DNA of 64,000 nucleotides. Source: a virus. A program made the translations under genes and the position numbers. Below the pieces are notes generated by a model. That model was not told the DNA's origin. It worked only from the letters and a program-made list of their open reading frames with translations, and ran no database searches. Below, one piece after another: positions 7,585 through 49,214 of this stretch (position 1 is its first letter; each line of letters opens with the position of its first letter). The stretch covers positions 35,857-99,856 of IMG/VR virus record IMGVR_UViG_3300028008_001363; one strand, given 5' to 3'.

Positions 7585-7845
7585 ATGTCAATTGACGCAA
7601 TTAACGAAGAAGAAAAAGCAAAACTCATTCAATTAGTGAACGAAGGTTGTTTAGTTCTACAAGAATGTGAAGACCTGAAAGGTGGATTACGTGATACTGT
7701 AAGAGCAATTGCTGAAGAAATCGATGTTAAACCATCAGTATTGAACAAAGCAATATCTGTGGCACACAAAGCCAAATTAGCAGAGACTCGTGCCGACTTT
7801 GAAGATATGGAAACTATCCTAGAAACAGTAGGTCGCACTCTTTGA
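7585..7845 (+). CDS. Small helical DNA-binding protein, T4 DsbA / GapR-like
   Basis: 86 aa, helical pattern (EDLKGGLRDTVRAIAEEIDVKPSVLNKAI); AGGAG RBS; family call by resemblance only. Confidence 0.45.
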   Translation: MSIDAINEEEKAKLIQLVNEGCLVLQECEDLKGGLRDTVRAIAEEIDVKPSVLNKAISVAHKAKLAETRADFEDMETILETVGRTL

Positions 7846-10649
7846 GTTATGTAGATGCTTTCTACAACAAAGACAAAGACATTGTTCAAGTTGTAGAACG
7901 AATTAAAGGTAAACGTGTTTACAGTGATTATCCAGCGTGGCGTACTTTCTATGTGAAAGACCCACGTGGTGACCACACAAGTATTCACGGTGATAAAGTT
8001 CGTCAAATCAAATGTAAACGTCTCAAAGACCTCCATAAAGAACGAAAGATAAACGTAGGCAAAACATTTTACGAAAGTGATATGAAGCCTGAAGTTAAGT
8101 GTTTGAGTGAGAACTACAACGGCGTAGAATCACCAAAACTTAATACTGCTTTCTTCGATATTGAGACTGACTTTGATGCGACTAAAGGCTTCGCTGACCC
8201 TAGTGACCCGTTTATGGCAATCACAGCCATTACGGTTCATTTACAATGGCTTGACTTACTTGTCACACTCGTAATCCCACCAAAGGGTATGCGTGAGGGC
8301 GAAGGCTTAGAAGAGGCACAACGCATTTGTTCACAATTCGAAAACACAGAACTATACCTAAGTGAAGCAGATATGCTCAATGACTTCTTAGATGTGATTG
8401 AAGATGCTGATGTGTTGACTGGTTGGAACTCTGAAGGTTATGATATTCCATATACTGTTAATCGAATTACTAGAGTACTGAGTAAGTCACATACACGCAA
8501 GATGTGTTTGTGGGATTTAGTACCTCAGAAACGTAAGATTGTAAAATATGGTAAAGAACAAGAAACATTTGACTTGTTTGGTAGAATTCACCTCGACTAC
8601 TTAGAACTCTATCGTAAGTATACTTACCACGAAATGCATTCATATGCACTTGATACGATTGGTGAACATGAAGTAGGTGAACAAAAAGTTGCATATGATG
8701 GCACACTCGACCAGTTATATAACAATGACTTCTACAAATTCGTAGCCTATAACAGACAAGACGTTGCACTACTTGATAAGATTGATAAGAAACTAAGATT
8801 TATCGAATTAGCAAATGAGATTGCACACGATAATACAGTGAATATCAAAACAACAATGGGTGCTGTTGCTGTTACTGAACAAGCAATCATTAACGAAGCA
8901 CACAGACGAGGCATGGTTGTTCCTGACAGAAAAAGACGTGAATGGTCAGATGATGATGTTGATTTGAGTGATGAAGAATTACATGACTTAGAAATGCAAA
9001 AGGCCGCAGGTGCTTTCGTGGCAGTTCCTAAGAAAGGTTTACAGAAGTGGGTTGCAGGTATTGATATCAACTCTCTTTATCCATCAGTTATTCGTGCAAT
9101 GAATATGTCGCCAGAAACTATCGCTGGACAACTAAGACCAGATTTGACTGAAAAGATGATTGGTGACCGAATTAAAGAAGGCAGAAAAACTGGTGCTAAA
9201 ACATATGGGTCTTCTCAAGCATGGGATGAAACGTTTAGTTCAGAAGAGTTTCGTGTTCTAAATGAGAAAGACAAAGCAAGTAGAGTTACGTTAGTACTAG
9301 AAGATAGTCCATACGAAGACATGAAAACAACTCAAACAGTATCTGGTGCAGAAGCATATGACTTGATATTCAATAGCGGATTGAACTGGACTGTGACTGC
9401 AAATGGCACTATATTCAAACAAGATGTACAAGGTATTGTCCCTAGTTTGTTAGAACGTTGGTATGCAGAACGACAAGTGATGCAACAAAGCAAAAAGAAG
9501 GCTATTGCAGATGGTGATAAAGAACAAATCGCTTACTGGGATAAACGACAGTTAGTTAAAAAGATTAACTTGAACTCTCTGTATGGTGCGTTGTTGAACC
9601 AAGGTTGTCGTTTCTATGATAAGCGTATTGGTCAGAGTACAACACTTACGGGTCGTTGTATTACTCGACATATGGGTGCGAAAACAAATGAAGTTATCGC
9701 AGGTCATTACGACTATAAAGGTCCAGCAGTTATATATGGTGATACAGACTCCATTTACTATTCAATGTATCCCGTGTACCAGCAAGAGATTGATGATGGT
9801 TCTATAGAGTGGACTAAAGACAAGGTCTTAGAGTTATATGACGAAGTAGCAAATCAAGTGAATGCTAGTTTTCCAGACTTTATGAAAACGTTCTTTAATG
9901 TTCCTAGAAAAGAAGGCGAGATTATCGTTGCTGGTCGTGAGAACTGTGCCACACAAGGTATCTTTATTAAGAAGAAACGATATGCAATGCTTATCTATGA
10001 TGATGATGGCGAACGCCGTGATATAGATGGCAAACCAGGAAAGATTAAAGCGATGGGTCTTGACCTTAAACGTTCTGATACTCCTGGTTATATGCAAGAT
10101 TTTCTCAGTGAAGTTCTACTGAAAGTATTGACTGAAGGAACACGTGAAGAAGTCATTAAAATGGTCAAAGAGTTTAAGAAAGAGTTTAGAGCAAAGCCAG
10201 GTTGGGAAAAAGGTTCTCAATCTCGTGTGAACAATTTGACTTCATATAAGAACCGTGTGAATGCCGCTAAGAAGGCAATGGCTAAAGATATGAATGCGGG
10301 CGGTGATGCATCTAAGAAAGACAAAGTACATCTTCCTGGTCACGTGTCAGCCGCATTGAACTGGAATATGTTACGTGAACTTAACCAAGACAAGTATGCA
10401 GTAGAGATTGTAGATGGTATGAAGTGTATCATTTGTAAACTAAAACCAAATACGTTCAAGTTAAAGAGTGTGGCATATCCAATTGATGCTACAAAGATAC
10501 CACAATGGTTTCAGGATTTGCCATTCGACCACGAGTTAATGGAACAAACGATTGTTGATAAGAAGTTAGACAACTTGATTGGTGTTTTGAATTGGGATAT
10601 GAGTGATGCAAATGCATCCGAAACTTTTGACAACTTGTTTGATTTATAA
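7842..10649 (+). CDS. Family B DNA polymerase (T4 gp43-like) with 3'-5' exonuclease
   Basis: Exo motifs FDIET, GWNSEGYDIPY, YNRQD; pol motifs DINSLYPS, KINLNSLYG, YGDTDS; C-terminal TFDNLFDL clamp-binding-like tail; TTG start. Confidence 0.97.
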   Translation: MSYVDAFYNKDKDIVQVVERIKGKRVYSDYPAWRTFYVKDPRGDHTSIHGDKVRQIKCKRLKDLHKERKINVGKTFYESDMKPEVKCLSENYNGVESPKLNTAFFDIETDFDATKGFADPSDPFMAITAITVHLQWLDLLVTLVIPPKGMREGEGLEEAQRICSQFENTELYLSEADMLNDFLDVIEDADVLTGWNSEGYDIPYTVNRITRVLSKSHTRKMCLWDLVPQKRKIVKYGKEQETFDLFGRIHLDYLELYRKYTYHEMHSYALDTIGEHEVGEQKVAYDGTLDQLYNNDFYKFVAYNRQDVALLDKIDKKLRFIELANEIAHDNTVNIKTTMGAVAVTEQAIINEAHRRGMVVPDRKRREWSDDDVDLSDEELHDLEMQKAAGAFVAVPKKGLQKWVAGIDINSLYPSVIRAMNMSPETIAGQLRPDLTEKMIGDRIKEGRKTGAKTYGSSQAWDETFSSEEFRVLNEKDKASRVTLVLEDSPYEDMKTTQTVSGAEAYDLIFNSGLNWTVTANGTIFKQDVQGIVPSLLERWYAERQVMQQSKKKAIADGDKEQIAYWDKRQLVKKINLNSLYGALLNQGCRFYDKRIGQSTTLTGRCITRHMGAKTNEVIAGHYDYKGPAVIYGDTDSIYYSMYPVYQQEIDDGSIEWTKDKVLELYDEVANQVNASFPDFMKTFFNVPRKEGEIIVAGRENCATQGIFIKKKRYAMLIYDDDGERRDIDGKPGKIKAMGLDLKRSDTPGYMQDFLSEVLLKVLTEGTREEVIKMVKEFKKEFRAKPGWEKGSQSRVNNLTSYKNRVNAAKKAMAKDMNAGGDASKKDKVHLPGHVSAALNWNMLRELNQDKYAVEIVDGMKCIICKLKPNTFKLKSVAYPIDATKIPQWFQDLPFDHELMEQTIVDKKLDNLIGVLNWDMSDANASETFDNLFDL

Positions 10650-12040: not shown

Positions 12041-12250
12041 ATGACTACACCCGTAAGACCAGACGTTGACGAAAAGAAACGTACACGCCTCATATATTTA
12101 AAGAAACAACACAGAGACCTAGACAACGGTATAACTACTGCATACAATATGCGTACTGAAGACCTAGTAGTTTCTAAACTTAAGTTGAAGAAGTTGCATC
12201 TAAAAGAAGAAATTCTACGGCTAGAAGAAGAGTTAGCAGGAAACTTGTGA
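12041..12250 (+). CDS. DUF465 / YdcH-like coiled-coil protein
   Basis: LKKQHRDLD...LKLKKLHLKEEI matches the HxxLD / LKKxKLxLKDxI pattern. Confidence 0.7.
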   Translation: MTTPVRPDVDEKKRTRLIYLKKQHRDLDNGITTAYNMRTEDLVVSKLKLKKLHLKEEILRLEEELAGNL

Positions 12251-12798
12251 CTATTATAAAACCTACACCAAAAACTATTCAAAATTTGATTAGAGTAATA
12301 CCAGACCATCCTAGGCCTGGTGTTCTCTATCAGGATATGGCTAGTATATTTAATGCACCTCAAGGTCTTCAACATGTAATGACTTTGTTTTCAGACTATA
12401 TTGAAGAAAACAATATTCAATTTAACAAAATCATTGGGCTAGATGCTCGTGGTTTTCCTATGGCAGGTGCATTAAGTTCACAAACTGGTATACCATTTTC
12501 TATGGCTAGAAAGAAAGGTAAACTACCAGGTGAAACTATCTTTACACAATATGAACTAGAATATGGAACTGATGAATTACATCTACAGAAAGGTGCAATA
12601 CAAAGAGGTGACAAAGTTCTGGTCATAGATGATGTTATTGCAACTGGTGGGACACTAGGTGCTGTGATTACATTAACTGATAGATTTGGTGCTGATATTA
12701 GTAGTATACTAAGTATAATGGAACTAGAGTTTTTAGGTGGTGGTGCTAAGTTACGAGACGAAGGCTACGATGTATACTCTATACTCCAAGAACAATAA
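12247..12798 (+). CDS. apt: Adenine phosphoribosyltransferase
   Basis: LDARGF, RKKGKLPG, LEYGTD, PRPP loop VIDDVIATGGT; GTG start. Confidence 0.95.
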   Translation: MTIIKPTPKTIQNLIRVIPDHPRPGVLYQDMASIFNAPQGLQHVMTLFSDYIEENNIQFNKIIGLDARGFPMAGALSSQTGIPFSMARKKGKLPGETIFTQYELEYGTDELHLQKGAIQRGDKVLVIDDVIATGGTLGAVITLTDRFGADISSILSIMELEFLGGGAKLRDEGYDVYSILQEQ

Positions 12799-12813: not shown

Positions 12814-13896
12814 ATGAACAACTATATTTTTACAAGCGAAAGTGTAAGCGATGGACATCCAGATAAAGTTTCTGACCAGATTAGTGATGCATTAGTTGAT
12901 GCAGGACTAAAGAATGGCGATGAAACTACTCGTGTTGCTATCGAAACACTTGTAACCACTAACCACGTAACGGTAGCGGGTGAAGTAAAGAACTTTAACG
13001 TAGATAATGTAAAAGATATTATACGAGATAAAGTTAAAGAAATTGGCTATGAACAAGAAGGATTTCATTGGGATAATTTAAATATCTATAATGAAATACA
13101 TTCACAATCAGGTGATATTGGATTAGGTACTGATGACTTTGGTGCAGGTGACCAAGGCATTATGTTTGGCTATGCAACTAATGAAAACGATGCAATGCTA
13201 CCAGCACCAATTTACTATTCACATGAAATTCTAAAGAAACTAAAAGAACTTAGATTAGATGGATATGATTTCTTACTTCCAGATGCTAAGTCTCAAGTAA
13301 GTATTCAGTATGTTGGTGGTCGTGTTCAACGAGCAGACCAAATTGTAGTAAGTACACAACATAAACAGGGCTTTATGCATAGTCTTAAAGCACCAGTGAA
13401 AGAAGCAGTCAATAGTGTAATGGGAGATTTAATAGATGACAATACTAAATGGCATATCAATCCTACAGGCAATTTTGTCATTGGTGGTCCTGATGGTGAT
13501 ACAGGACTCACCGGGCGTAAGATTATCGTTGATACTTATGGTGGCTATGCTCCCCATGGTGGTGGTGCTTTTAGTGGAAAAGACCCCACAAAAGTCGACC
13601 GAAGTGCCGCCTATATGGCACGGTGGTTAGCAAAGAATGTTGTAGCAGACAATATGGCAGATTGGTGTCAAATTCAATTGTCATATGCTATTGGTGTAAA
13701 AGAACCAACAAGTATCTATATAGATAGTAATGGACACAACAGAACTATTCAAAAGTTTATCGAAGAAAACATTGACCTAACACCAAAGGGTATCATTGAT
13801 AGATTTGATTTATTCAAGTTTTATGGTTATAGTGAAAACTGTATCTACGGACACTTTGGCAACAAAGATGTACCATGGGAAAAGATTGGATGGTAA
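12814..13896 (+). CDS. metK: S-adenosylmethionine synthetase
   Basis: FTSESVSDGHPDK, GAGDQG, GGGAFSGKDPTKVDRS signatures. Confidence 0.98.
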   Translation: MNNYIFTSESVSDGHPDKVSDQISDALVDAGLKNGDETTRVAIETLVTTNHVTVAGEVKNFNVDNVKDIIRDKVKEIGYEQEGFHWDNLNIYNEIHSQSGDIGLGTDDFGAGDQGIMFGYATNENDAMLPAPIYYSHEILKKLKELRLDGYDFLLPDAKSQVSIQYVGGRVQRADQIVVSTQHKQGFMHSLKAPVKEAVNSVMGDLIDDNTKWHINPTGNFVIGGPDGDTGLTGRKIIVDTYGGYAPHGGGAFSGKDPTKVDRSAAYMARWLAKNVVADNMADWCQIQLSYAIGVKEPTSIYIDSNGHNRTIQKFIEENIDLTPKGIIDRFDLFKFYGYSENCIYGHFGNKDVPWEKIGW

Positions 13897-13917
13897 CAAT
13901 TGAAAAGGAGAAATATT

Positions 13918-14385
13918 ATGGCAAAGACACTTAATCCAAATTCATGGTTTGGCACGCCAGAAGAAAAAGAACGAGCGATTGCTAGGCGCATCACCGATGA
14001 AAAAGAACAAGCAATTGCACTAGAAGAAATCAATTTCAAGTATGGTCATACAGACCAACATACTTACGACAAGAACATGGCTACACATAAAGGTGAACAG
14101 TATGTTCGAGTTATTGGTATGGAATTAGACAAAGATAAACCAGGACAAGGTTTCTTTGAGTTAGATTTCAACGACCAATTCGTAGAATATCTTGCACAGA
14201 ATGGCTATGAAGGTTTAGAACAAGAACAAATCGTTGATAATTGGTTCAATGATTTATGTAAGAACATTGTACTAAATGATTTAGAAGACGAAGAAGGCAT
14301 TAGAAGAAGCGTAATGTCTGATAGCAAAGATGGACTAATCATTAGTAAAGTCAAAACTGACAAGGATACTTCAGAATATTATTAA
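13918..14385 (+). CDS. Hypothetical phage protein
   Basis: ATG 13918 follows an AGGAG RBS (preferred to the track start 13900); no recognised motif. Confidence 0.6.
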   Translation: MAKTLNPNSWFGTPEEKERAIARRITDEKEQAIALEEINFKYGHTDQHTYDKNMATHKGEQYVRVIGMELDKDKPGQGFFELDFNDQFVEYLAQNGYEGLEQEQIVDNWFNDLCKNIVLNDLEDEEGIRRSVMSDSKDGLIISKVKTDKDTSEYY

Positions 14386-14448: not shown

Positions 14449-15447
14449 ATGAGTACCTATATCTTAGTTGATTCGTTTAATATGTATCACAGAGCCAAAC
14501 ACGTAGCAATGCGTGGTGCTAATATTGATATGAAAATCGGTATGGCATACCACATTATGCTTAGTAGTGTAAAACTATGTTATAACAAATTCAATGCAGA
14601 CCATGCCGTGTTCTGCCTAGAAGGTCGCAGTTGGCGTAAAGACTTCTATGAGCCATATAAGAAGAATAGAAAAGTTGCTCAAATGGCTAAGAGTGTTAGA
14701 GAGCAAGAAGAAGACCAAATCATGTTCGATGCCTATGCAGACATGGTAGAGTTTTTAGATACAAAAACTAATGTAACTATGTTACGAAATCCAGAAGCAG
14801 AAGCAGACGATATGATTGCTTTGTTTATTGAGGCGCATCCAAATGATAATCATATTATCGTATCAAGCGATAGTGATTACTTTCAACTTATCACTGACAA
14901 TGTAACTATGTATGATGGTGTACAAAATCGTATCATTACTAAAGATGGTTTCTTTAAAGATGATAAGAATATGACCCCTATCAAAGAGAAGAAGACTGGT
15001 GAGATTAAAGAGAAAGTAGACCCGAAGTGGGCATTGTTTGAGAAATGTGTCCGTGGCGATACATCAGATAATATCTTTTCAGCATATCCTGGCTGTCGTA
15101 AGAAAGGTACCAAGAACAAGATTGGTATGTTAGAAGCATTCGCAGATAAAGATGCTGGTGGTTTCAACTGGAATAACTTTATGTTACAACGCTGGACTGA
15201 CCATAATGGTGAAGAACATACTGTCCGTGAAGACTATGAACGCAATGTTAAACTAGTAGACTTAACGGCTCAACCACATGAACTTAAAGTAAAGTTTATT
15301 GAAACTATTGCAGAGAATAGTATTCCTAAGACTAATGCTGGTGTTGGTATGAACTTCTTAAAGTTCTGTGGCATACATGATTTACAAAATCTTGCTAAGT
15401 CACCTGACGAACTTGCTAAAATACTTAACAATCCGTATCCGTCTTAA
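14449..15447 (+). CDS. T4 RNase H-like 5'-3' exonuclease / flap nuclease
   Basis: ILVDSFN, SWRKDFYEPYKKNR, EADDMI, SSDSDYFQL, GDTSDNI. Confidence 0.9.
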   Translation: MSTYILVDSFNMYHRAKHVAMRGANIDMKIGMAYHIMLSSVKLCYNKFNADHAVFCLEGRSWRKDFYEPYKKNRKVAQMAKSVREQEEDQIMFDAYADMVEFLDTKTNVTMLRNPEAEADDMIALFIEAHPNDNHIIVSSDSDYFQLITDNVTMYDGVQNRIITKDGFFKDDKNMTPIKEKKTGEIKEKVDPKWALFEKCVRGDTSDNIFSAYPGCRKKGTKNKIGMLEAFADKDAGGFNWNNFMLQRWTDHNGEEHTVREDYERNVKLVDLTAQPHELKVKFIETIAENSIPKTNAGVGMNFLKFCGIHDLQNLAKSPDELAKILNNPYPS

Positions 15448-16166
15448 TGCATTTTATATTTGACGTAGATGGTACTCTAACACCAAGTAGAGATAGAATA
15501 GATGAAGACTTTAGACTATGGTTCTTAGAGTTCATCAAGTGGAATAATGTTTACTTAGTTACAGGAAGTGATAGAAGTAAAACAGAAGAACAAGTTGGTG
15601 AAGAAGTATTTGAAAAGGTAGAATGTGTATACAATTCTTCTGGCAATACCAAATATAAAAATGGTATATGCGTAATGAATTCAAAAAACTTAGAACTGCC
15701 ACGTGATGCGTATGCTTTCTTATTAAAGAAATCTATTAGTAGTGATTTTGATATCGCCACAGGCAATCATTTTGAAGCAAGACCAGGACTATTAAACTTT
15801 AGTGTTGTTGGTAGAAATGCTAACAGAGTACAACGAAAGAAGTATGTTAAGTTTGATACTACAACTAATGAAAGACAAAAGATTTCTGATGAATTTAACA
15901 AAAAGTTTACTGGTAAGTTTGGTCTAATATCACAGGTTGCAGGTGAAACAGGATTAGATATTATTGAGATGGGTAAAGACAAAGCACAAATATTAAAGGA
16001 TTTTACATTCCAAGATAAGTTGATATTCTTTGGTGACAACATACAATGGGGCGGCAACGATTATGGCATTGCACAAGCAATTGAATATGGTCCATATGCG
16101 TACAGTGAATGTCACAATGTAAAGAATTGGAAAGAAACTTGGAAGATACTAAAAAGATTTAAATGA
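15447..16166 (+). CDS. HAD-IIB phosphatase/mutase, eukaryote-type phosphomannomutase-like
   Basis: FDVDGTLTPSR, VTGSD, NFSVVGRNA, FFGD...GGND. Confidence 0.8.
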   Translation: MHFIFDVDGTLTPSRDRIDEDFRLWFLEFIKWNNVYLVTGSDRSKTEEQVGEEVFEKVECVYNSSGNTKYKNGICVMNSKNLELPRDAYAFLLKKSISSDFDIATGNHFEARPGLLNFSVVGRNANRVQRKKYVKFDTTTNERQKISDEFNKKFTGKFGLISQVAGETGLDIIEMGKDKAQILKDFTFQDKLIFFGDNIQWGGNDYGIAQAIEYGPYAYSECHNVKNWKETWKILKRFK

Positions 16167-27912: not shown

Positions 27913-29232
27913 ATGGGTCAACCACAAAAACAAGTAGCCACAGAAAGCGAATTAGATAGTGCATTAGATGATGTTCTAGCCGCTAATGGTATTGAAGTAG
28001 ATGATACTCTACCAGAACCTGTAGTATTTGATTATACTGACGAAAAAGTCAAAGAAATGATTGTGAGTAGTCGTGTTCGCCTTCTTATTCGTCACCCATT
28101 TTTCGGTACACTTGCTACTCGATTGAAATTAGTCGAGGCAGAATGGTGTCCTACAGCCGCTACTGACGGCAGACATTTTTATTACAACTGTGATTTCTTC
28201 CGAACTATGACATCAGAAGAAATTGATTTCGTTGTTGGTCACGAAGTTCTTCACTGTGTATATGAACACTGTGGTGAGTATGGTCGTTTGATGGACATGG
28301 AAGAAAATTCACGTGACATGAAACTTTGGAATATTGCGGCTGACTATAAAGTCAATCAAGCCCTAGTCGAATCACGTGTTGGTGTTATGCCAAAGATGGC
28401 ATTACATGACCGAAAGTATTACAGGAGTTACACCGAAGAGATTTATGAACACCTTAAAGAAACTGGCGAGGGTGATGATAAAGAAACATTAGACCAGCAC
28501 ATGTTTGGTGACGGTAACGGTGACGGCAAGAATGACCCAACTGGTCGTGGTGCTCCTATCAAAGTTTCTAAGCAAGAAGCCCAAGCGATTAAAGACCAGA
28601 TGAAACAGGCTGTAATACAAGCGGCACAATCAACTGATGCCGGTACTCTTCCTGGTGATGTTAAAAGAATTATAAATGGCATGACTAATCCTAAAATGGA
28701 TTGGCGTGAACTTCTTAACATTTCAATTCAAAGTCTTTTGAAAAGTGATTTCACATTTATGAGACAATCTCGTAAATCACAATCAATGGGTGTTTATCTT
28801 CCTGGTTCAAAAAATGAAGAAAAGATTGATGTTGCAATCGCACTTGATGTTTCTGGTTCTATTTCATCTACTATGATTGAAGAGTTTCTTGGTGAAATGT
28901 CTGGCATTATGCAACAGTTCCAAGACTTCAAAATTCGTGTTTGGACTTTTGATACCGAAGTAAATGGCGAGGGTTATAAAGAGTTTGACCCGTACAATGC
29001 CGATGAACTTAAAGAGTACGAGATTATCGGTGGCGGTGGTACTGACTTTGATATCAACTATCAGTTTATGAAAGATAATGATATTGAGCCTGATAAGTTT
29101 ATTATGTTTACTGATGGCTTACCTTGGGATAGTTGGGGTGACGAAAGTTATTGTGATAGTTTGTTTATCATTCACGGTTCTGAAAGCATTGTCCCACCTT
29201 TCGGTGAACATGCATACTATAGCGAGGGATGA
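27913..29232 (+). CDS. Metallopeptidase-like / vWA protein (DUF2201-type MoxR partner)
   Basis: PTAATDG, HEVLH zinc motif, WNIAADY, DVSGS MIDAS, GGGGTDF, FTDG. Confidence 0.88.
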   Translation: MGQPQKQVATESELDSALDDVLAANGIEVDDTLPEPVVFDYTDEKVKEMIVSSRVRLLIRHPFFGTLATRLKLVEAEWCPTAATDGRHFYYNCDFFRTMTSEEIDFVVGHEVLHCVYEHCGEYGRLMDMEENSRDMKLWNIAADYKVNQALVESRVGVMPKMALHDRKYYRSYTEEIYEHLKETGEGDDKETLDQHMFGDGNGDGKNDPTGRGAPIKVSKQEAQAIKDQMKQAVIQAAQSTDAGTLPGDVKRIINGMTNPKMDWRELLNISIQSLLKSDFTFMRQSRKSQSMGVYLPGSKNEEKIDVAIALDVSGSISSTMIEEFLGEMSGIMQQFQDFKIRVWTFDTEVNGEGYKEFDPYNADELKEYEIIGGGGTDFDINYQFMKDNDIEPDKFIMFTDGLPWDSWGDESYCDSLFIIHGSESIVPPFGEHAYYSEG

Positions 29233-29840: not shown

Positions 29841-30377
29841 ATGAGAGATACCCTCCTTCTAAATGCAGACGGCAATCCTTTAAGTGTCGCACCCCTTTCA
29901 ACACTAACTTGGCAAGAGAGTGTAAAACTCGTTTGGCTTGACCGTATTAACGTCCTGGAATGGCACGAGGACTGGCAGGTACATAGTCCTACACTTACAA
30001 TGACTGTGCCGAGTGTTATAATGACCAGAGATTTTGTTAGACAACGAACTAATACTTCATTCAGTCGAAGCAATGTTTATCTAAGAGATAATTATATTTG
30101 CCAATACTGTAAACAAATGTTTAGTTATAAAGAATTAACACTCGACCATGTTCTTCCAAAATCTCTTGGCGGTAAATTAACATGGACTAATACTGTGACT
30201 GCGTGTAAAAAATGCAATAATCAAAAAGGTAGTCACACTCACATAAAACCTTATAGAGAACCTAAACAACCAGACTTCTATGAACTGGTAAGTGGTGTCA
30301 GTTTGAAACAAGTTGACCACGAAATATGGCTAAAATACCTAAATACTACAGAAGAGGTCAATATGGTCTACATTTAA
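29841..30377 (+). CDS. HNH endonuclease (McrA-like)
   Basis: RDNYICQYC, TLDHVLPKSLGG, NTVTACKKCNNQK. Confidence 0.92.
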   Translation: MRDTLLLNADGNPLSVAPLSTLTWQESVKLVWLDRINVLEWHEDWQVHSPTLTMTVPSVIMTRDFVRQRTNTSFSRSNVYLRDNYICQYCKQMFSYKELTLDHVLPKSLGGKLTWTNTVTACKKCNNQKGSHTHIKPYREPKQPDFYELVSGVSLKQVDHEIWLKYLNTTEEVNMVYI

Positions 30378-31950: not shown

Positions 31951-31979
31951 TTGACTTCGTGGTGTAAACCATGTAGAAT
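31951..31979 (+). promoter_or_regulatory. sigma70-type promoter
   Basis: TTGACT, 17 nt, TAGAAT. Confidence 0.6.
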
Positions 31980-32052
31980 AGAATAGTGAATTGAGTAAAT
32001 TAATTCATATTATATATAATATCAATTAAACAATGACAATAAGGAGCAATTT

Positions 32053-32304
32053 ATGTCAGAACAAGAAACAACAGCGGCACCTGAAGCAACATCACCAAGT
32101 GTTACGGTAAATGATTTGGTCAATATTTACAACATTATTGACTTAGCATCTAAGCGTGGCGCATTTCAGGCTAACGAACTATCGTCAGTCGGTGCAGTGG
32201 CAAATAAAGTCAAAGAATTTGTAGACCACGTTCAAGCGGCACAAGAAGCGGCCGCGGCTGAGCAAGGTGGAGAAAATGCAGATGTGACTGAAGGCGGTGC
32301 ATAA
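32053..32304 (+). CDS. Hypothetical phage protein
   Basis: 83 aa; AAGGAG RBS. Confidence 0.7.
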   Translation: MSEQETTAAPEATSPSVTVNDLVNIYNIIDLASKRGAFQANELSSVGAVANKVKEFVDHVQAAQEAAAAEQGGENADVTEGGA

Positions 32305-32951
32305 TGGCATCGTTTATTAAACATGTAGGCAAGCATAAAGGGACTGGTACTCGTTTGAGTGTCGTCTTTATGCAACTACCTAACGAACCAGAGAGTGCGT
32401 TAGTCGTTTACAGTGATTCTTTGCCAGACAAATATCATCAATCTTTTATGGACGCTATTGAATCTAAAGAAGGTCAATCTTCAAAAGAATTGTATGAAGT
32501 TCTAACTCGCAAAGTATTTCCAAATGGACAAGGCATGTTAGATACTTTACACAAAGAAGGTTATCTAGGAAAAGTAGCGGCTGACCAAATTGTTATGACA
32601 CCTAACTCAGCAACAGTTATACCTTTACCTCAGTTGTTATCAGAAATGTCAAAAATTTCTGGTGCAGATGAAGTTGGTGTACAAGAAGAAAGAGGTCAAT
32701 CTTTTACTGAAAATGTACAAGAACAGATTGACACTGATGCGGCTGGTGATAACAAAAAGATTGCACAGAACTTACTAATTCAAGCAATGCTTTTAGAAAA
32801 AGAAGCAGAAAAGAAACGTTCTGAAGCAGTGAGATTTGACCCGTCTCTAACCGAGAAGGCTGAGAAACCTGCCAAAAAAGGCAGAGGTAGACCAGCAGGA
32901 ACTACTGCGAAAGCAATGGCGGCAAGAGCAAAAGCGGCGGCAACAGAATAA
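32304..32951 (+). CDS. Hypothetical protein with C-terminal AT-hook-like motif
   Basis: KKGRGRPAG near the C-terminus. Confidence 0.65.
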   Translation: MASFIKHVGKHKGTGTRLSVVFMQLPNEPESALVVYSDSLPDKYHQSFMDAIESKEGQSSKELYEVLTRKVFPNGQGMLDTLHKEGYLGKVAADQIVMTPNSATVIPLPQLLSEMSKISGADEVGVQEERGQSFTENVQEQIDTDAAGDNKKIAQNLLIQAMLLEKEAEKKRSEAVRFDPSLTEKAEKPAKKGRGRPAGTTAKAMAARAKAAATE

Positions 32952-32980
32952 GTATACTTAAAACTTAGAGAGGCATCAAA

Positions 32981-33343
32981 ATGATGGACGACCCAGACTT
33001 TGATAAGTTAATGGATGAAATATTTCCAATGAGTATTCCAACGGAATATGTAGAAAGTATACTAGTAACATTAGCAAGTGGACAAGAGATTGAAATGTCA
33101 GGTGATGAACTTTTACATCCTCTGCCACTTGCTGATGATTTAAACTGGGAAAGTCTTGTACATCGATTTGATAAAATTGCTGATGTCCAAGTAAAGATTG
33201 ACGTAGAAAAGATTAAACATGATGTAGCCGTTAATGTAAAAACAATCTTTGATAATCACTTTGATGATGATGACATAGATACTGGAACAATTGATGGTGA
33301 AATTGAAGATGAGAACAAGGACACATTGACAGACAATGATTAA
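32981..33343 (+). CDS. Acidic hypothetical protein
   Basis: 120 aa; GAGG RBS. Confidence 0.6.
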   Translation: MMDDPDFDKLMDEIFPMSIPTEYVESILVTLASGQEIEMSGDELLHPLPLADDLNWESLVHRFDKIADVQVKIDVEKIKHDVAVNVKTIFDNHFDDDDIDTGTIDGEIEDENKDTLTDND

Positions 33344-33905
33344 TATGATATTGGCTGCCGATGAGATTGGCGGTATTGGATTTAAAAACGGACTACCATG
33401 GCCAAAAATCAAAGAAGACTTAAACTGGTTTAGACAACTAACTGAAGAAAATGTAATAGTTATGGGGTCTACCACTTGGAAAAGTCTAGGTATTCATGCA
33501 CCATTAAAGCACAGACATAACTATGTAATCAGTTCAACTCATAGCAAAGATGACTTTCCTGGTTGTTTTGCAGTACGTAATCCAAAGATAGATTCAATAG
33601 AAGTAATACTCAAAGCATTAGATTATTCATATCCAGAACAAGATATATTTGTGATTGGTGGTAAAACTCTCTATGACGAAGCCATACATTATTGCGATGC
33701 TTTGTTTCTTACTAGAGTACACGACTTGTACTACACAGATACAGTGGTGGACCTGGATTTCTACACGAAAGACTTTGTATTGTTAAATCAGATGTACGCA
33801 CAAGGTAATCAAAATACACCAGATATAACATTCGAAACATATTTAAGACAAGAACCATACAATCCACAAGAAGAGTTCGATTGGGATGATGATATACCGT
33901 TCTAA
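33336..33905 (+). CDS. folA: Dihydrofolate reductase with SSB-Ct-like tail
   Basis: IGFKNGLPW, EDLNWF, VMGSTTWKSL, PLKHRHNYVIS, VIGG, LTRV; ends DWDDDIPF. Confidence 0.92.
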   Translation: MINMILAADEIGGIGFKNGLPWPKIKEDLNWFRQLTEENVIVMGSTTWKSLGIHAPLKHRHNYVISSTHSKDDFPGCFAVRNPKIDSIEVILKALDYSYPEQDIFVIGGKTLYDEAIHYCDALFLTRVHDLYYTDTVVDLDFYTKDFVLLNQMYAQGNQNTPDITFETYLRQEPYNPQEEFDWDDDIPF

Positions 33906-47904: not shown

Positions 47905-48555
47905 TTATTTAAATCCCCATTCTTTTTCTTTGCACCACCAACATTCGCCGCAATGTCCTAGTCCTGGGTCTTTTATGTTGTTTTTAGTAAAGTAGTCACA
48001 GGTCGGGTCATACTCACAACTTCTAGTAACTTGTAGTAAAGTATCTATTAAGTTTTCTTCTCTATACATCTTTGCTATACCTTGTTTGTTTGTGTTCGCC
48101 CAAGGCATATAAAACTTATCATTGTGATAATACATGACATTATTGCCGTCATCTTTCCTAGAGTAATCAAAGTCAAAAACTGGTACAAACTTACTAGCAA
48201 CTTCATTCGGTGGGTTCATTGTTGTTCCATCATATACTCTATTTAGGTTGCCACTTTCTACATCATTTTTGGGAGCATCACACATTGAACTGTCTGTTGC
48301 CGCTTCATCATAATGTATATGATGCACTACGTTATTGTTTCCTGTTAGTTGAATGCACTTCTCTACAACTACTGGAGCAACAATAGAATTTCTTCTAAAC
48401 TTTAGATTACTTCCTGTTGTATAGATATGAATAGTGTCGGTAGTATTCTTCATTAGATAGTATAATAAAATAGAACTATCTACACCACCACTCACCATTA
48501 TTCCTACGGGACCCTCAACTATCTCAAGTTCAACTCCCGCACAATCAATTAACAC
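47905..48555 (-). CDS. QueC-like PP-loop ATP pyrophosphatase (paralog 2)
   Basis: VSGGVDSS, TRSCE, CGECWWC. Confidence 0.8.
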   Translation of the reverse strand: MLIDCAGVELEIVEGPVGIMVSGGVDSSILLYYLMKNTTDTIHIYTTGSNLKFRRNSIVAPVVVEKCIQLTGNNNVVHHIHYDEAATDSSMCDAPKNDVESGNLNRVYDGTTMNPPNEVASKFVPVFDFDYSRKDDGNNVMYYHNDKFYMPWANTNKQGIAKMYREENLIDTLLQVTRSCEYDPTCDYFTKNNIKDPGLGHCGECWWCKEKEWGFK

Positions 48556-49214
48556 TACACTAAGTCTCCTGCCAATGGAAATATCTCTGCGATAACTTTA
48601 GCACATTCGTGTGCAATTTCCATGTGTTCTTTTTGTGTACCATTTGCGCCACGTAATTCGATGTAATGTACCCAACTACGAATTGAACCATTCATATACA
48701 ATCGTGTCTTAGTATTGCCTTCAGGTAGAACAACCCTTGCTTGTTCTTTAGCAATGCCCGAATCGATAGCCCAGTCATATACTTCTTTGGCTTTATCAAT
48801 CACTTCTTGTTGTTTACTACGCCAAGCAAAATGAATGTCTTCATCACTATCAACTTCTACACTGTTCTGCCTATTCTTTGTATCTTGTAATCTTGCTTCA
48901 CGTAATACAAACTGGTCACCCATTTCTTCTGGGTTAGCATAACGTTGACTGAATTCTTGGAATGAGAAACTACGGTGACGCACAATTTGGTGTGCAATGT
49001 CACGTGTTGTTTCAATCTCTAAACATGCACTAACCATTTCAAGTGGTGACCAATGCTGGTGTTTGATGAGATACTTAATTAGTTTCTCACTTGTTTCTTT
49101 ATTGATTTGATTGTTTGGATTGCTTACTTTGGCACAGTATGCAATTAGTTCCTGTACGTTGTCTAGTTCTGAACCAACTGGTGCTGTACTATGTGATATT
49201 AGTTTTACTGACAT
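48555..49214 (-). CDS. thyX: Flavin-dependent thymidylate synthase
   Basis: HWSPLE, RHRSFSFQEFSQRY, EQARVVLP, TQKEH. Confidence 0.96.
   Translation of the reverse strand: MSVKLISHSTAPVGSELDNVQELIAYCAKVSNPNNQINKETSEKLIKYLIKHQHWSPLEMVSACLEIETTRDIAHQIVRHRSFSFQEFSQRYANPEEMGDQFVLREARLQDTKNRQNSVEVDSDEDIHFAWRSKQQEVIDKAKEVYDWAIDSGIAKEQARVVLPEGNTKTRLYMNGSIRSWVHYIELRGANGTQKEHMEIAHECAKVIAEIFPLAGDLV

What the first reader, a model, noticed from the sequence alone, without database searches (positions are those of the whole stretch)
33336..33905. DHFR carrying a bacterial SSB C-terminal tail mimic (EEFDWDDDIPF)
Seen: after the DHFR fold the ORF continues with a short linker and ends exactly in DDDIPF-stop (33870-33905). 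Known: bacterial SSB ends in DFDDDIPF, the docking peptide for ExoI, RecQ, PriA, Pol III chi, uracil-DNA glycosylase and others; DHFRs do not normally have it. Inference: either it tethers folate/dTMP metabolism to DNA-processing complexes, or it is a decoy titrating host SSB-interacting repair and defence proteins.
Basis: partly seen in the sequence, partly recalled or inferred. Interest (0 to 1): 0.72.

Follow-up and report, generated by a model that had tools for sequence, protein, structure and literature searches.

The report
Phage DHFR with host SSB tail

Summary
The ORF at 33336-33905 (+) encodes a 189-aa type I DHFR: a confident fold over residues 1-171, an 11-residue floppy linker, and a tip ending WDDDIPF-stop.

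- **Selection:** The tip is kept in all 16 protein clusters of this clade (60-94% identity) and in 8 related viral contigs. Its codons show synonymous changes, while the linker varies freely.
- **Clade-specific:** None of the 150 nearest other DHFR clusters has the tip, nor do three cultured jumbo-phage DHFRs.
- **Mimics the cell, not the phage:** The gp32-like SSBs of the nearest relatives (Atu_ph07, Phosso, CBB and 79 full-length IMG/VR copies) end in a different, basic amphipathic motif. Marine bacterial SSBs end in DDDIPF or DDEIPF.
- **Other tails differ:** The phage polymerase's clamp-type tail and the RNR small-subunit tails I could read do not resemble it.

The phage is a marine T4-like jumbo phage, and this record is only about 26% complete. 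The gene is last in a conserved four-gene operon behind sigma-70-like promoters.

My best reading is a host-SSB-tip motif that occupies the tip pockets of host genome-maintenance proteins, acting as a competitor. A tether to replication is the main rival. No binding was tested, because the complex predictor was closed.

This scan has noted SSB-tip mimics on many other non-SSB proteins, but none on a DHFR.

The parts
33336..33905 (+). Whole ORF: 189-aa DHFR with SSB-type C-terminal tail, stop included
   Evidence: Translation. Pfam PF00186 at E 9.5e-32. Homologues at 60-94% identity.
33336..33848 (+). DHFR catalytic domain (residues 1-171)
   Evidence: AF2 pLDDT 93-98 per 10-residue block over residues 1-170. 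Foldseek to E. coli and B. subtilis DHFR: E 5e-17, TM 0.76-0.91. D28, F32, R60, G108-G109 and T126 are conserved.
33849..33881 (+). Variable, low-confidence linker (residues 172-182, LRQEPYNPQEEFD)
   Evidence: The pLDDT block means fall to 62 and then 48. Mean column identity is 0.41 against 0.83 for the core.
33882..33902 (+). Tip WDDDIPF (residues 183-189): SSB-Ct-type short linear motif at the free C-terminus
   Evidence: Across 16 clusters: F at -1 in 16, P in 10 and L in 6 at -2, I in 13 at -3, D in 14 at -4, W/F/Y in 15 at -7. Synonymous codon variation.
31951..32020 (+). Two tandem sigma-70-like promoter matches upstream of the operon
   Evidence: TTGACT-17-TAGAAT and TTGAGT-18-TATAAT, 10 of 12 matches each. 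The count in the region is not above chance; only the position is suggestive. In two RNA libraries the first pieces listed begin at 31995 and 32121.
32053..32304 (+). o83, first gene of the conserved operon (83 aa, no family)
   Evidence: Adjacent in all 8 related loci. No Pfam match.
32304..32951 (+). o215 (215 aa), jumbo-phage core hypothetical protein with a basic GRGRP C-terminus
   Evidence: phrog_15894. Homologues in PA5oct, Phosso, XbC2, SP27 and others. No Pfam, PDB or Atlas name.
32981..33343 (+). o120 (120 aa, very acidic); its stop overlaps the DHFR start (ATGATTAA)
   Evidence: 78-97% identical and adjacent in all 8 relatives. Sequence. No homologue among cultured phages.
48555..49214 (-). 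Context: ThyX flavin-dependent thymidylate synthase, without the tail
   Evidence: PF02511 at E 3.8e-47, placed at G000 84432-85019, which is window 48576-49163. No ThyA found. C-terminal residues listed.
7842..10649 (+). Context: T4-type family B DNA polymerase, ending ...ETFDNLFDL (clamp-type tail, unlike the DHFR tip)
   Evidence: phrog_262 at E 5e-189. 48% identity to Atu_ph07 and Phosso, 42% to CBB. Tail.

Best explanation
This is a catalytically intact phage dihydrofolate reductase. One clade of marine T4-like jumbo phages has given it a flexible 11-residue linker and a copy of the C-terminal tip of cellular SSB ([DE]-W/F-D-D-D-I-P-F-COOH).

Shown: the fold, the conserved DHFR residues, the disorder of the tail, purifying selection on the tip, its restriction to this clade, and its likeness to bacterial rather than related-phage SSB ends.

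Inferred: the tip works like SSB-Ct. The terminal Phe and its free carboxylate would sit in the hydrophobic and basic pocket of proteins that read the host SSB tip, with the Asp run on the basic rim. Such readers include ExoI, RecJ, RecQ, RecO, PriA, RecG, Pol III chi and primase.

Further inferred: related phages' gp32-like SSBs use a different tail, and this phage brings its own T4-type polymerase. Its replisome would therefore be insulated. The most likely net effect is competition: an early phage protein occupies the tip pockets of host replication-restart, recombination and nuclease proteins. DHFR would serve as the stable carrier while keeping its enzymatic role.
For: - **DHFR identity and integrity:**
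- **Tip conserved while the linker drifts:**, with synonymous changes in tip codons.
- **Tip absent elsewhere:** not in the 150 nearest other DHFR clusters or in the 50%-identity relatives P0019 and P0020. Not in the XbC2, Yen9-04 or Caitlin DHFRs.
- **Related phage SSBs end differently:** CBB ends ...DLVAKLKAKSGQ, Atu_ph07 ...DLIAQLKARQSAK and Phosso ...EILRRIRERQGN. 79 full-length IMG/VR copies end in the A[ED]DILAMIRxRQ type and none is acidic-IPF (one further copy runs off its contig).
- **Marine bacterial SSBs match:** they end ...DDEFDDDIPF (a gammaproteobacterial MAG) and ...DLDDEIPF (Pelagibacteraceae).
- **Defining SSB-Ct features present:** a terminal Pro-Phe with free carboxylate and three acidic residues, as described in PMC3561973. 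SSB-Ct recruits at least 17 partners (PMC10018359 and PMC7145534).
- **Early expression is plausible:** sigma-70-like promoters lie upstream and contigs from RNA libraries cover the operon.
- **Precedent:** phage SPP1's SSB G36P, whose C-terminus is ~75% identical to that of host SsbA, blocks host replication in vitro (PMC3561973).
Against:
- A monomer with one tail is a weak competitor against tetrameric SSB on ssDNA.
- It is unclear why DHFR rather than a dedicated small protein would carry the motif.
- The near-invariant Trp at -7, and the drift to ...DILF and ...EELF in some clusters, hint at one specific partner rather than the generic SSB interactome.
- The host is unknown. The only host clues are weak.
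- This clade's own SSB was not found on any fragment. 'Insulated replisome' therefore rests on bracketing by relatives.
Confidence: 0.4

Rival explanations
1. Tether rather than competitor. The tip docks DHFR onto a protein that sits stably at replication or repair sites. That protein could be a host SSB-tip reader or a phage protein that kept such a pocket, such as a primase, a RecG/UvsW-type helicase, an RNase H/FEN or an epsilon-like exonuclease. Reduced folate or nucleotide synthesis would then be placed next to DNA synthesis, in the spirit of the T4 dNTP synthetase complex.
For: - The same conservation evidence applies.
- The phage has a T4-type replisome core: polymerase and a 5'-3' exonuclease.
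- From my own knowledge, T4 DHFR belongs to a dNTP-synthesising complex linked to gp32 (work from the Mathews laboratory). My search of the held library did not list that work.
I could not re-find it.
Against: - The phage's thymidylate synthase is ThyX, which from established enzymology does not generate dihydrofolate. ThyX also lacks the tail.
- No other ORF in about 400 kb of clade sequence carries the tip.
- The related phages' SSB tails are different, so their replisomes presumably read another motif.
- A protein with a single tip pocket would be pulled off SSB rather than co-localised with it.
Confidence: 0.25
2. Convergent look-alike. The acidic tail with aromatic anchors at -7 and -1 is read by one dedicated partner that has nothing to do with SSB biology. 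Candidates are the phage sliding clamp, the RNR large subunit (which binds acidic, aromatic-ended R2 tails), a T7-style basic patch on a polymerase, or one of the unknown operon partners o83, o215 and o120.
For: - W/F/Y at -7 and F at -1 are the best-kept positions. Pro and the acids are partly lost in P0006-8 (DEDILF), P0014 (QDILF) and P0015/16 (EELF).
- The gene is translationally coupled to o120 in a conserved operon.
- From my own knowledge, T7 gp2.5 and gp4 share acidic Phe-ended tails that dock on the polymerase.
Against: - The majority tip is identical to SSB-Ct over 6-8 residues.
- The polymerase's own clamp-type tail (ETFDNLFDL) is different.
- NrdB tails in a related phage contig (...TFKGLSL) and in Pelagibacteraceae (...WAEAFS) are unlike it.
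- o120 is strongly acidic, so it is a poor reader of an acidic tail.
- The o83-o215-small-ORF block also exists in Phosso with no DHFR annotated among its nearby genes.
Confidence: 0.2
3. No docking role. The tail could act within the molecule, for example folding back on the folate or NADPH site, whose Arg and hydrophobic pocket resemble an SSB-Ct pocket. It could also be a solubility or turnover signal.
For: The DHFR folate site combines a hydrophobic pocket with Arg60, the equivalent of E. coli Arg57. This is inference only.
Against: - AF2 leaves the tail unplaced at low confidence.
- Residue-level conservation of a motif identical to a known docking peptide is not expected for a mere solubility tag.
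Confidence: 0.08

Closest known systems
C-terminal tip of bacterial SSB (SSB-Ct, E. coli ...DFDDDIPF), the hub peptide read by at least 17 genome-maintenance proteins (PMC10018359, PMC7145534, PMC3561973)
   Same: It sits at the extreme C-terminus and ends in Pro-Phe. Three Asp precede it and an aromatic residue lies at -7, all behind a disordered linker. One clade member ends in DFDDDIPF; from my own knowledge this equals the last eight residues of E. coli SSB.
   Different: It is attached to a monomeric metabolic enzyme, not to an OB-fold ssDNA-binding tetramer. The linker is 11 residues; from my own knowledge the E. coli SSB linker is about 56. Trp is preferred at -7.
Phage SSB-type proteins that carry the host tip: SPP1 G36P (PMC3561973), DUF669 prophage SSBs (PMC13687109), and the '0087' SSB-like protein of phages related to Bas49-59 ending in DDIPF (bioRxiv 10.64898/2026.10.27.754916)
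   Same: A phage gene product copies the host SSB tip. G36P, a phage SSB, blocks host replication in vitro.
   Different: Those proteins all bind ssDNA, so the tip keeps its normal context. Here the carrier has no known DNA-binding function.
T7 gp2.5 and gp4 acidic Phe-ended tails, and the T4/RB69 clamp-binding C-terminal peptides (own knowledge; also named in scan notes e1-173140 and e1-5888221)
   Same: The principle is shared: a short acidic or hydrophobic C-terminal peptide on several proteins docks them onto one replisome surface.
   Different: This phage's polymerase ends in a different, clamp-type peptide (ETFDNLFDL). No other protein with the DHFR-type tip was seen.
T4 Frd (DHFR) in the dNTP synthetase complex, and fused DHFR-TS enzymes
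   Same: A phage-encoded type I DHFR among DNA-metabolism genes. The idea of physically coupling folate reduction to other machinery is also shared.
   Different: No fusion to TS. The local thymidylate synthase is ThyX. The coupling device here is a linear motif, not a domain interface. Cultured jumbo-phage DHFRs lack it.

Membership tests
Type I dihydrofolate reductase (Pfam PF00186, FolA/Frd) | Sequence match above the curated threshold over the whole domain | tested here: met
   110.3 bits against a cut-off of 25; residues 1-171 match profile positions 1-159 of 159. 94 PDB DHFR sequences match at E<=1e-10.
Type I dihydrofolate reductase (Pfam PF00186, FolA/Frd) | DHFR alpha/beta fold | tested here: met
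   AF2 mean pLDDT 91.6. Foldseek top hits are all DHFR, E 5e-17, TM up to 0.91.
Type I dihydrofolate reductase (Pfam PF00186, FolA/Frd) | Catalytic and ligand-binding residues. E. coli numbering from my own knowledge: Asp27, Phe31, Arg57, Gly95-Gly96, Thr113. | tested here: met
   D28, F32, R60 and G108-G109 are invariant or nearly invariant in A1 and A2; T126 is nearly invariant in A1. The motifs align with B. subtilis DHFR 8uvz.
Type I dihydrofolate reductase (Pfam PF00186, FolA/Frd) | NADPH-dependent reduction of dihydrofolate | not testable with these tools
   Needs an enzyme assay.
SSB-Ct-type docking motif (works like; not an SSB) | Motif at the extreme C-terminus ending in Pro-Phe with a free carboxylate | tested here: met
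   ...DDDIPF followed by TAA. F at -1 in 16 of 16 clusters; P at -2 in 10 and L in 6.
SSB-Ct-type docking motif (works like; not an SSB) | Run of acidic residues just before the hydrophobic end | tested here: met
   D or E at -6 in 15 of 16 clusters, at -5 in 13 of 16 and at -4 in 15 of 16.
SSB-Ct-type docking motif (works like; not an SSB) | Presented on a disordered linker and conserved more than that linker | tested here: met
   pLDDT 62 then 48 over the last two blocks. Column identity 0.77 for the tip against 0.41 for the linker. Synonymous changes in tip codons.
SSB-Ct-type docking motif (works like; not an SSB) | Binds the tip pocket of SSB-interacting proteins | not testable with these tools
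Needs ITC, fluorescence polarisation or pull-down.
Bacterial or phage SSB (PF00436 OB fold, or gp32 PF08804) | ssDNA-binding OB-fold domain | tested here: not met
   The protein is a DHFR domain only. There is no PF00436 or PF08804 match anywhere in the record.
T4-type sliding-clamp client tail | C-terminal peptide like that of the phage's own DNA polymerase | tested here: not met
   The polymerase ends ...ETFDNLFDL and DHFR ends ...EEFDWDDDIPF. The shared E-x-F-D stretch is not conserved in DHFR homologues.
RNR small-subunit C-terminal tail mimic | Likeness to the NrdB tail of the phage or host | tested here: inconclusive
   No NrdB lies on the clade's fragments. NrdB of a related phage contig ends ...TFKGLSL and Pelagibacteraceae NrdB ends ...WAEAFS, both unlike the tip.

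The most novel reading that the evidence does not exclude
A metabolic enzyme has been recruited as a carrier for a host hub peptide. Through its SSB-tip copy, the phage DHFR would bind specific host SSB-interacting proteins with consequences for infection. It could shut down host replication restart, recombination or ssDNA nucleases. It could also out-compete defence proteins that themselves dock through SSB-type tails. The phage's own replisome would read a different SSB tail and stay immune. If so, 'SSB-interactome jamming by tail mimicry' would be a host-takeover or counter-defence mechanism carried by an abundant marine phage lineage.
Probability: 0.3. Interest if true: 0.75.

Novelty: new variant of a known kind. 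Interest (0 to 1): 0.55.

Why it matters
SSB-Ct is one of the best-studied bacterial hub motifs and is pursued as an antibacterial target, yet it is described almost only on ssDNA-binding proteins. This is a selected, exact copy on a folate enzyme with no DNA role, in a phage lineage found in 20 marine sequencing studies. It gives a clean, cheap experiment: a seven-residue tip, one point mutant, and known reader proteins. That experiment asks whether phages jam or hijack the SSB interactome. It also bears on the old question of whether nucleotide-precursor enzymes are physically wired to DNA machinery. It further shows that these jumbo phages' own SSBs carry a different conserved tail, which suggests two parallel tail codes in the infected cell.

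Tried and rejected
- **This clade's own SSB:** not found. There was no PF08804 or PF00436 match and no CBB-SSB homologue on G000-G007. Low-GC gp32-like contigs could not be linked to this phage by DNA.
- **Pfam gp32 model:** PF08804 also misses the Atu_ph07 SSB, which the CBB protein does find. The empty Pfam answers are therefore uninformative.
- **Host:**
  - The phage's SbmA-like gene finds Pelagibacteraceae at 36-40%, but by a word-biased search.
  - The 83% hit lies on a 106-kb contig binned in a gammaproteobacterial MAG. That contig shares only scattered genes with this phage and is probably a binned phage contig, so it gives no host call.
  - That MAG and contig have no DHFR match.
- **Clamp-tail and RNR-tail readings:** not supported.
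- **Operon neighbours as partners:** o215 and o120 have no family, structure or Atlas name. The o83-o215-small-ORF block occurs in Phosso with no DHFR annotated among its nearby genes.
not re-found. The kinases of T1, BEC3, Henu8 and K31PH164 lack it, and an exact pattern scan of IMG/VR was empty.
- **Near-DNA search of cultured phages:** no match.
- **RNA-library contigs:** they cover the operon, but contigs cannot prove transcription or give levels.
- **Literature:** searches found no paper on a DHFR with an SSB-type tail.

Full report
**1. The observation**

window:33336-33905 (+) is an open frame of 189 codons ending ...QEEFDWDDDIPF-TAA. Pfam DHFR_1 covers residues 1-171 end to end at E 9.5e-32. 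No other stop-to-stop frame in the window ends in an acidic-IPF peptide. The same holds for the full 99,856-bp virus record and for about 400 kb of related contigs.

**2. What the protein is**

- An AlphaFold2 model built on a 50-sequence alignment has mean pLDDT 91.6. The 10-residue blocks over residues 1-170 score 93-98, and the last two blocks fall to 62 and 48.
- Foldseek places the model on E. coli, B. subtilis and other DHFR structures (E about 5e-17, TM up to 0.91).
- The residues that define an active type I DHFR are conserved: D28, F32, R60, G108-G109 and T126. By my own knowledge these match E. coli Asp27, Phe31, Arg57, Gly95-96 and Thr113.
- The protein is therefore an intact DHFR domain (1-171), an 11-residue flexible linker (172-182) and a 7-residue tip (183-189, WDDDIPF).

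**3. Is the tail selected?**

- A search of 5.8 billion proteins found 19 relatives. All 16 full-length clusters of the clade, the window's own included, carry a tip at 60-94% identity.
- Twelve of the 16 clusters end in [DE][DE]D[IL]PF (11 in -IPF, one in -LPF); three end in DEDILF, one in QDILF and two in E/Q-rich ELF.
- Eight IMG/VR contigs all encode ...[WF]DDDIPF.
- By position across the 16 clusters:

| Position | Residues |
|---|---|
| -1 | F in 16 |
| -2 | P in 10, L in 6 |
| -3 | I in 13 |
| -4 | D in 14 |
| -7 | W in 12, F in 2, Y in 1 |

- Mean column identity is 0.83 for the core, 0.41 for the linker and 0.77 for the tip.
- Tip codons differ synonymously between contigs (GAT/GAC, ATA/ATC/ATT, CCG/CCT/CCA), while the linker changes at the amino-acid level. 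This is the signature of a short linear motif under purifying selection.
- The motif is clade-specific. The two relatives at about 50% identity stop right after the fold. None of the 150 best other 50%-cluster representatives, out of 17,682 DHFR hits, has such an end. The DHFRs of the jumbo phages XbC2, fHe-Yen9-04 and Caitlin lack it too.

**4. The phage**

- The window is bases 35857-99856 of an IMG/VR record estimated to be 26% complete.
- Its family B polymerase is 48% identical to those of Agrobacterium phage Atu_ph07 and Sinorhizobium phage Phosso, and 42% to the Rak2-like phages CBB and GAP32. It is therefore a T4-like jumbo phage.
- The same DNA is held by runs of 20 marine or seawater studies, including six RNA libraries. 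GC content is 35%.
- DHFR is the last gene of a block o83-o215-o120-DHFR that is kept in all eight related contigs. The stop of o120 overlaps the DHFR start.
- Two sigma-70-like promoter matches, 10 of 12 each, lie in the 130-bp gap before o83. In two RNA libraries the first pieces listed begin at 31995 and 32121. This is only a weak hint of a host-polymerase (early) transcript, because contigs cannot prove transcription.

**5. Whose tail is being copied?**

- Phage CBB's gp32-type SSB (gp277) ends ...PADLVAKLKAKSGQ.
- Its homologues in Atu_ph07 and Phosso end ...DLIAQLKARQSAK and ...EILRRIRERQGN.
- 79 full-length IMG/VR copies, including 11 at GC 0.33-0.35, end in the same kind of motif, A[ED]DIL(A/K)MIRxRQ. 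None ends in an acidic-IPF peptide; one further copy runs off its contig.
- This clade's own SSB is on none of the fragments. Its tail is therefore inferred by bracketing, not seen.
- Cellular SSBs from marine genomes end ...DDEFDDDIPF (a gammaproteobacterial MAG) and ...DLDDEIPF (five Pelagibacteraceae).
- The DHFR tip thus mimics the bacterial tip, not the jumbo-phage one.
- The polymerase ends ...ETFDNLFDL, a clamp-type peptide that is also different.

**6. Mechanism**

At least 17 proteins use this tip (PMC10018359, PMC7145534). The DHFR tip has every one of these sequence features on a flexible linker. I therefore rate 'works like SSB-Ct' at about 0.65.

What the docking achieves is inference.

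- **Competition, 0.4.** I favour this for three reasons. The phage brings its own T4-type replisome and probably reads a different SSB tail, so it could flood SSB-tip pockets without harming itself. The gene looks early. And phage SPP1's SSB G36P, whose C-terminus is ~75% identical to that of host SsbA, blocks host replication in vitro.
- **Tethering, 0.25.** DHFR could be tethered to replication or repair machinery. An earlier scan note of an SSB-type tail on a phage dNMP kinase would fit, but I could not re-find that case. Two points count against it. The local thymidylate synthase is ThyX, which by established enzymology yields tetrahydrofolate and so makes a DHFR-thymidylate channel pointless. 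No second tailed enzyme was seen.
- **Dedicated unrelated partner, 0.2.** This is suggested by the strong Trp at -7 and by the ILF and ELF variants.
- **Intramolecular or neutral role, 0.08.** This is the least likely reading.

**7. Comparison with what is known**

Phage SSB-type proteins with the host tip are published: SPP1 G36P, DUF669 prophage SSBs, and the '0087' protein of phages related to Bas49-59. My searches found no paper describing the tip on a DHFR or on any folate enzyme.

Within this scan, 491 notes mention SSB-tail mimics on non-SSB proteins such as kinases, nucleotidyltransferases, replication initiators and ChmC. None concerns a DHFR, and no look-alike of this protein was indexed. 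I therefore class it as a new variant of a known kind: a real, selected motif in an unexpected carrier, with the partner and effect untested.

**8. Limits**

- The host is unknown.
- The genome is a fragment, so 'only DHFR carries the tip' holds for roughly a quarter to a third of the genome.

Noticed in passing
L061:11074-12117 (CBB gp277); L160, L161; L062-L141: The gp32-like SSBs of the Rak2/Atu_ph07 jumbo-phage supergroup share a conserved C-terminal amphipathic basic motif, A[ED]DIL(A/K)MIR(S/N)RQ. It is seen in 79 full-length IMG/VR copies, CBB, Atu_ph07 and Phosso. It looks like their own partner-docking tail, distinct from both the bacterial SSB-Ct and, from my own knowledge, the acidic T4 gp32 end.
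   Followed up: partly
window 48555-49214 (-) with 33336-33905 (+): The phage pairs a DHFR with ThyX (PF02511, E 3.8e-47) and has no ThyA on the fragment. By established enzymology ThyX does not make dihydrofolate, so the metabolic reason for carrying DHFR is unclear. ThyX sits inside the minus-strand radical-SAM block.
   Followed up: partly
window 32053-33343 (+): A conserved three-gene block lies upstream of DHFR. It comprises o83, o215 (phrog_15894, with a basic GRGRP AT-hook-like C-terminus and homologues in PA5oct, Phosso, XbC2, SP27 and Vibrio 2.275.O) and the very acidic o120. None has a known family.
   Followed up: partly
window 7842-10649 (+): The family B DNA polymerase is a single ORF here, whereas Atu_ph07 annotates two adjacent polymerase CDS. 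It ends in a T4-like clamp-type peptide, ...ETFDNLFDL.
   Followed up: no
window 27913-29232 and 29841-30377 (+): Two HNH endonuclease genes lie upstream of the operon, with variable content between them. o127, o105, the radical-SAM gene rSAM361 and o151 are present in some relatives and absent or divergent in others, which suggests a mobile, homing-endonuclease-rich hot spot.
   Followed up: partly
G006:C28 (L144-L149), 106,270 bp: This contig is binned in a 'Gammaproteobacteria bacterium SP335' MAG. It carries an SbmA-like gene 83% identical to the phage's, plus ExbB-like, radical-SAM and NrdB genes shared patchily with this phage. It is probably a mis-binned related jumbo-phage contig and not host DNA.
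   Followed up: partly
L034 3692-14010 (G000 upstream of the window): There are six tRNA genes, five of them clustered at 13179-14010.
   Followed up: no
L162 (phage T1) 32211-32633 and 47118-47327: T1 ST27, annotated as hypothetical, ends ...QQSTFDDDIPF after a Q/P-rich linker, so it is a likely unannotated SSB. The 69-aa ST6 ends ...DVDDYIPW, a second SSB-tip-like end in the same small phage.
   Followed up: no
window 12814-13896, 12247-12798, 15447-16166 (+): MetK (SAM synthetase), a phosphoribosyltransferase and a phosphomannomutase-like HAD protein sit between the polymerase and the 5'-3' exonuclease. These are auxiliary metabolic genes inside the replication module.
   Followed up: no
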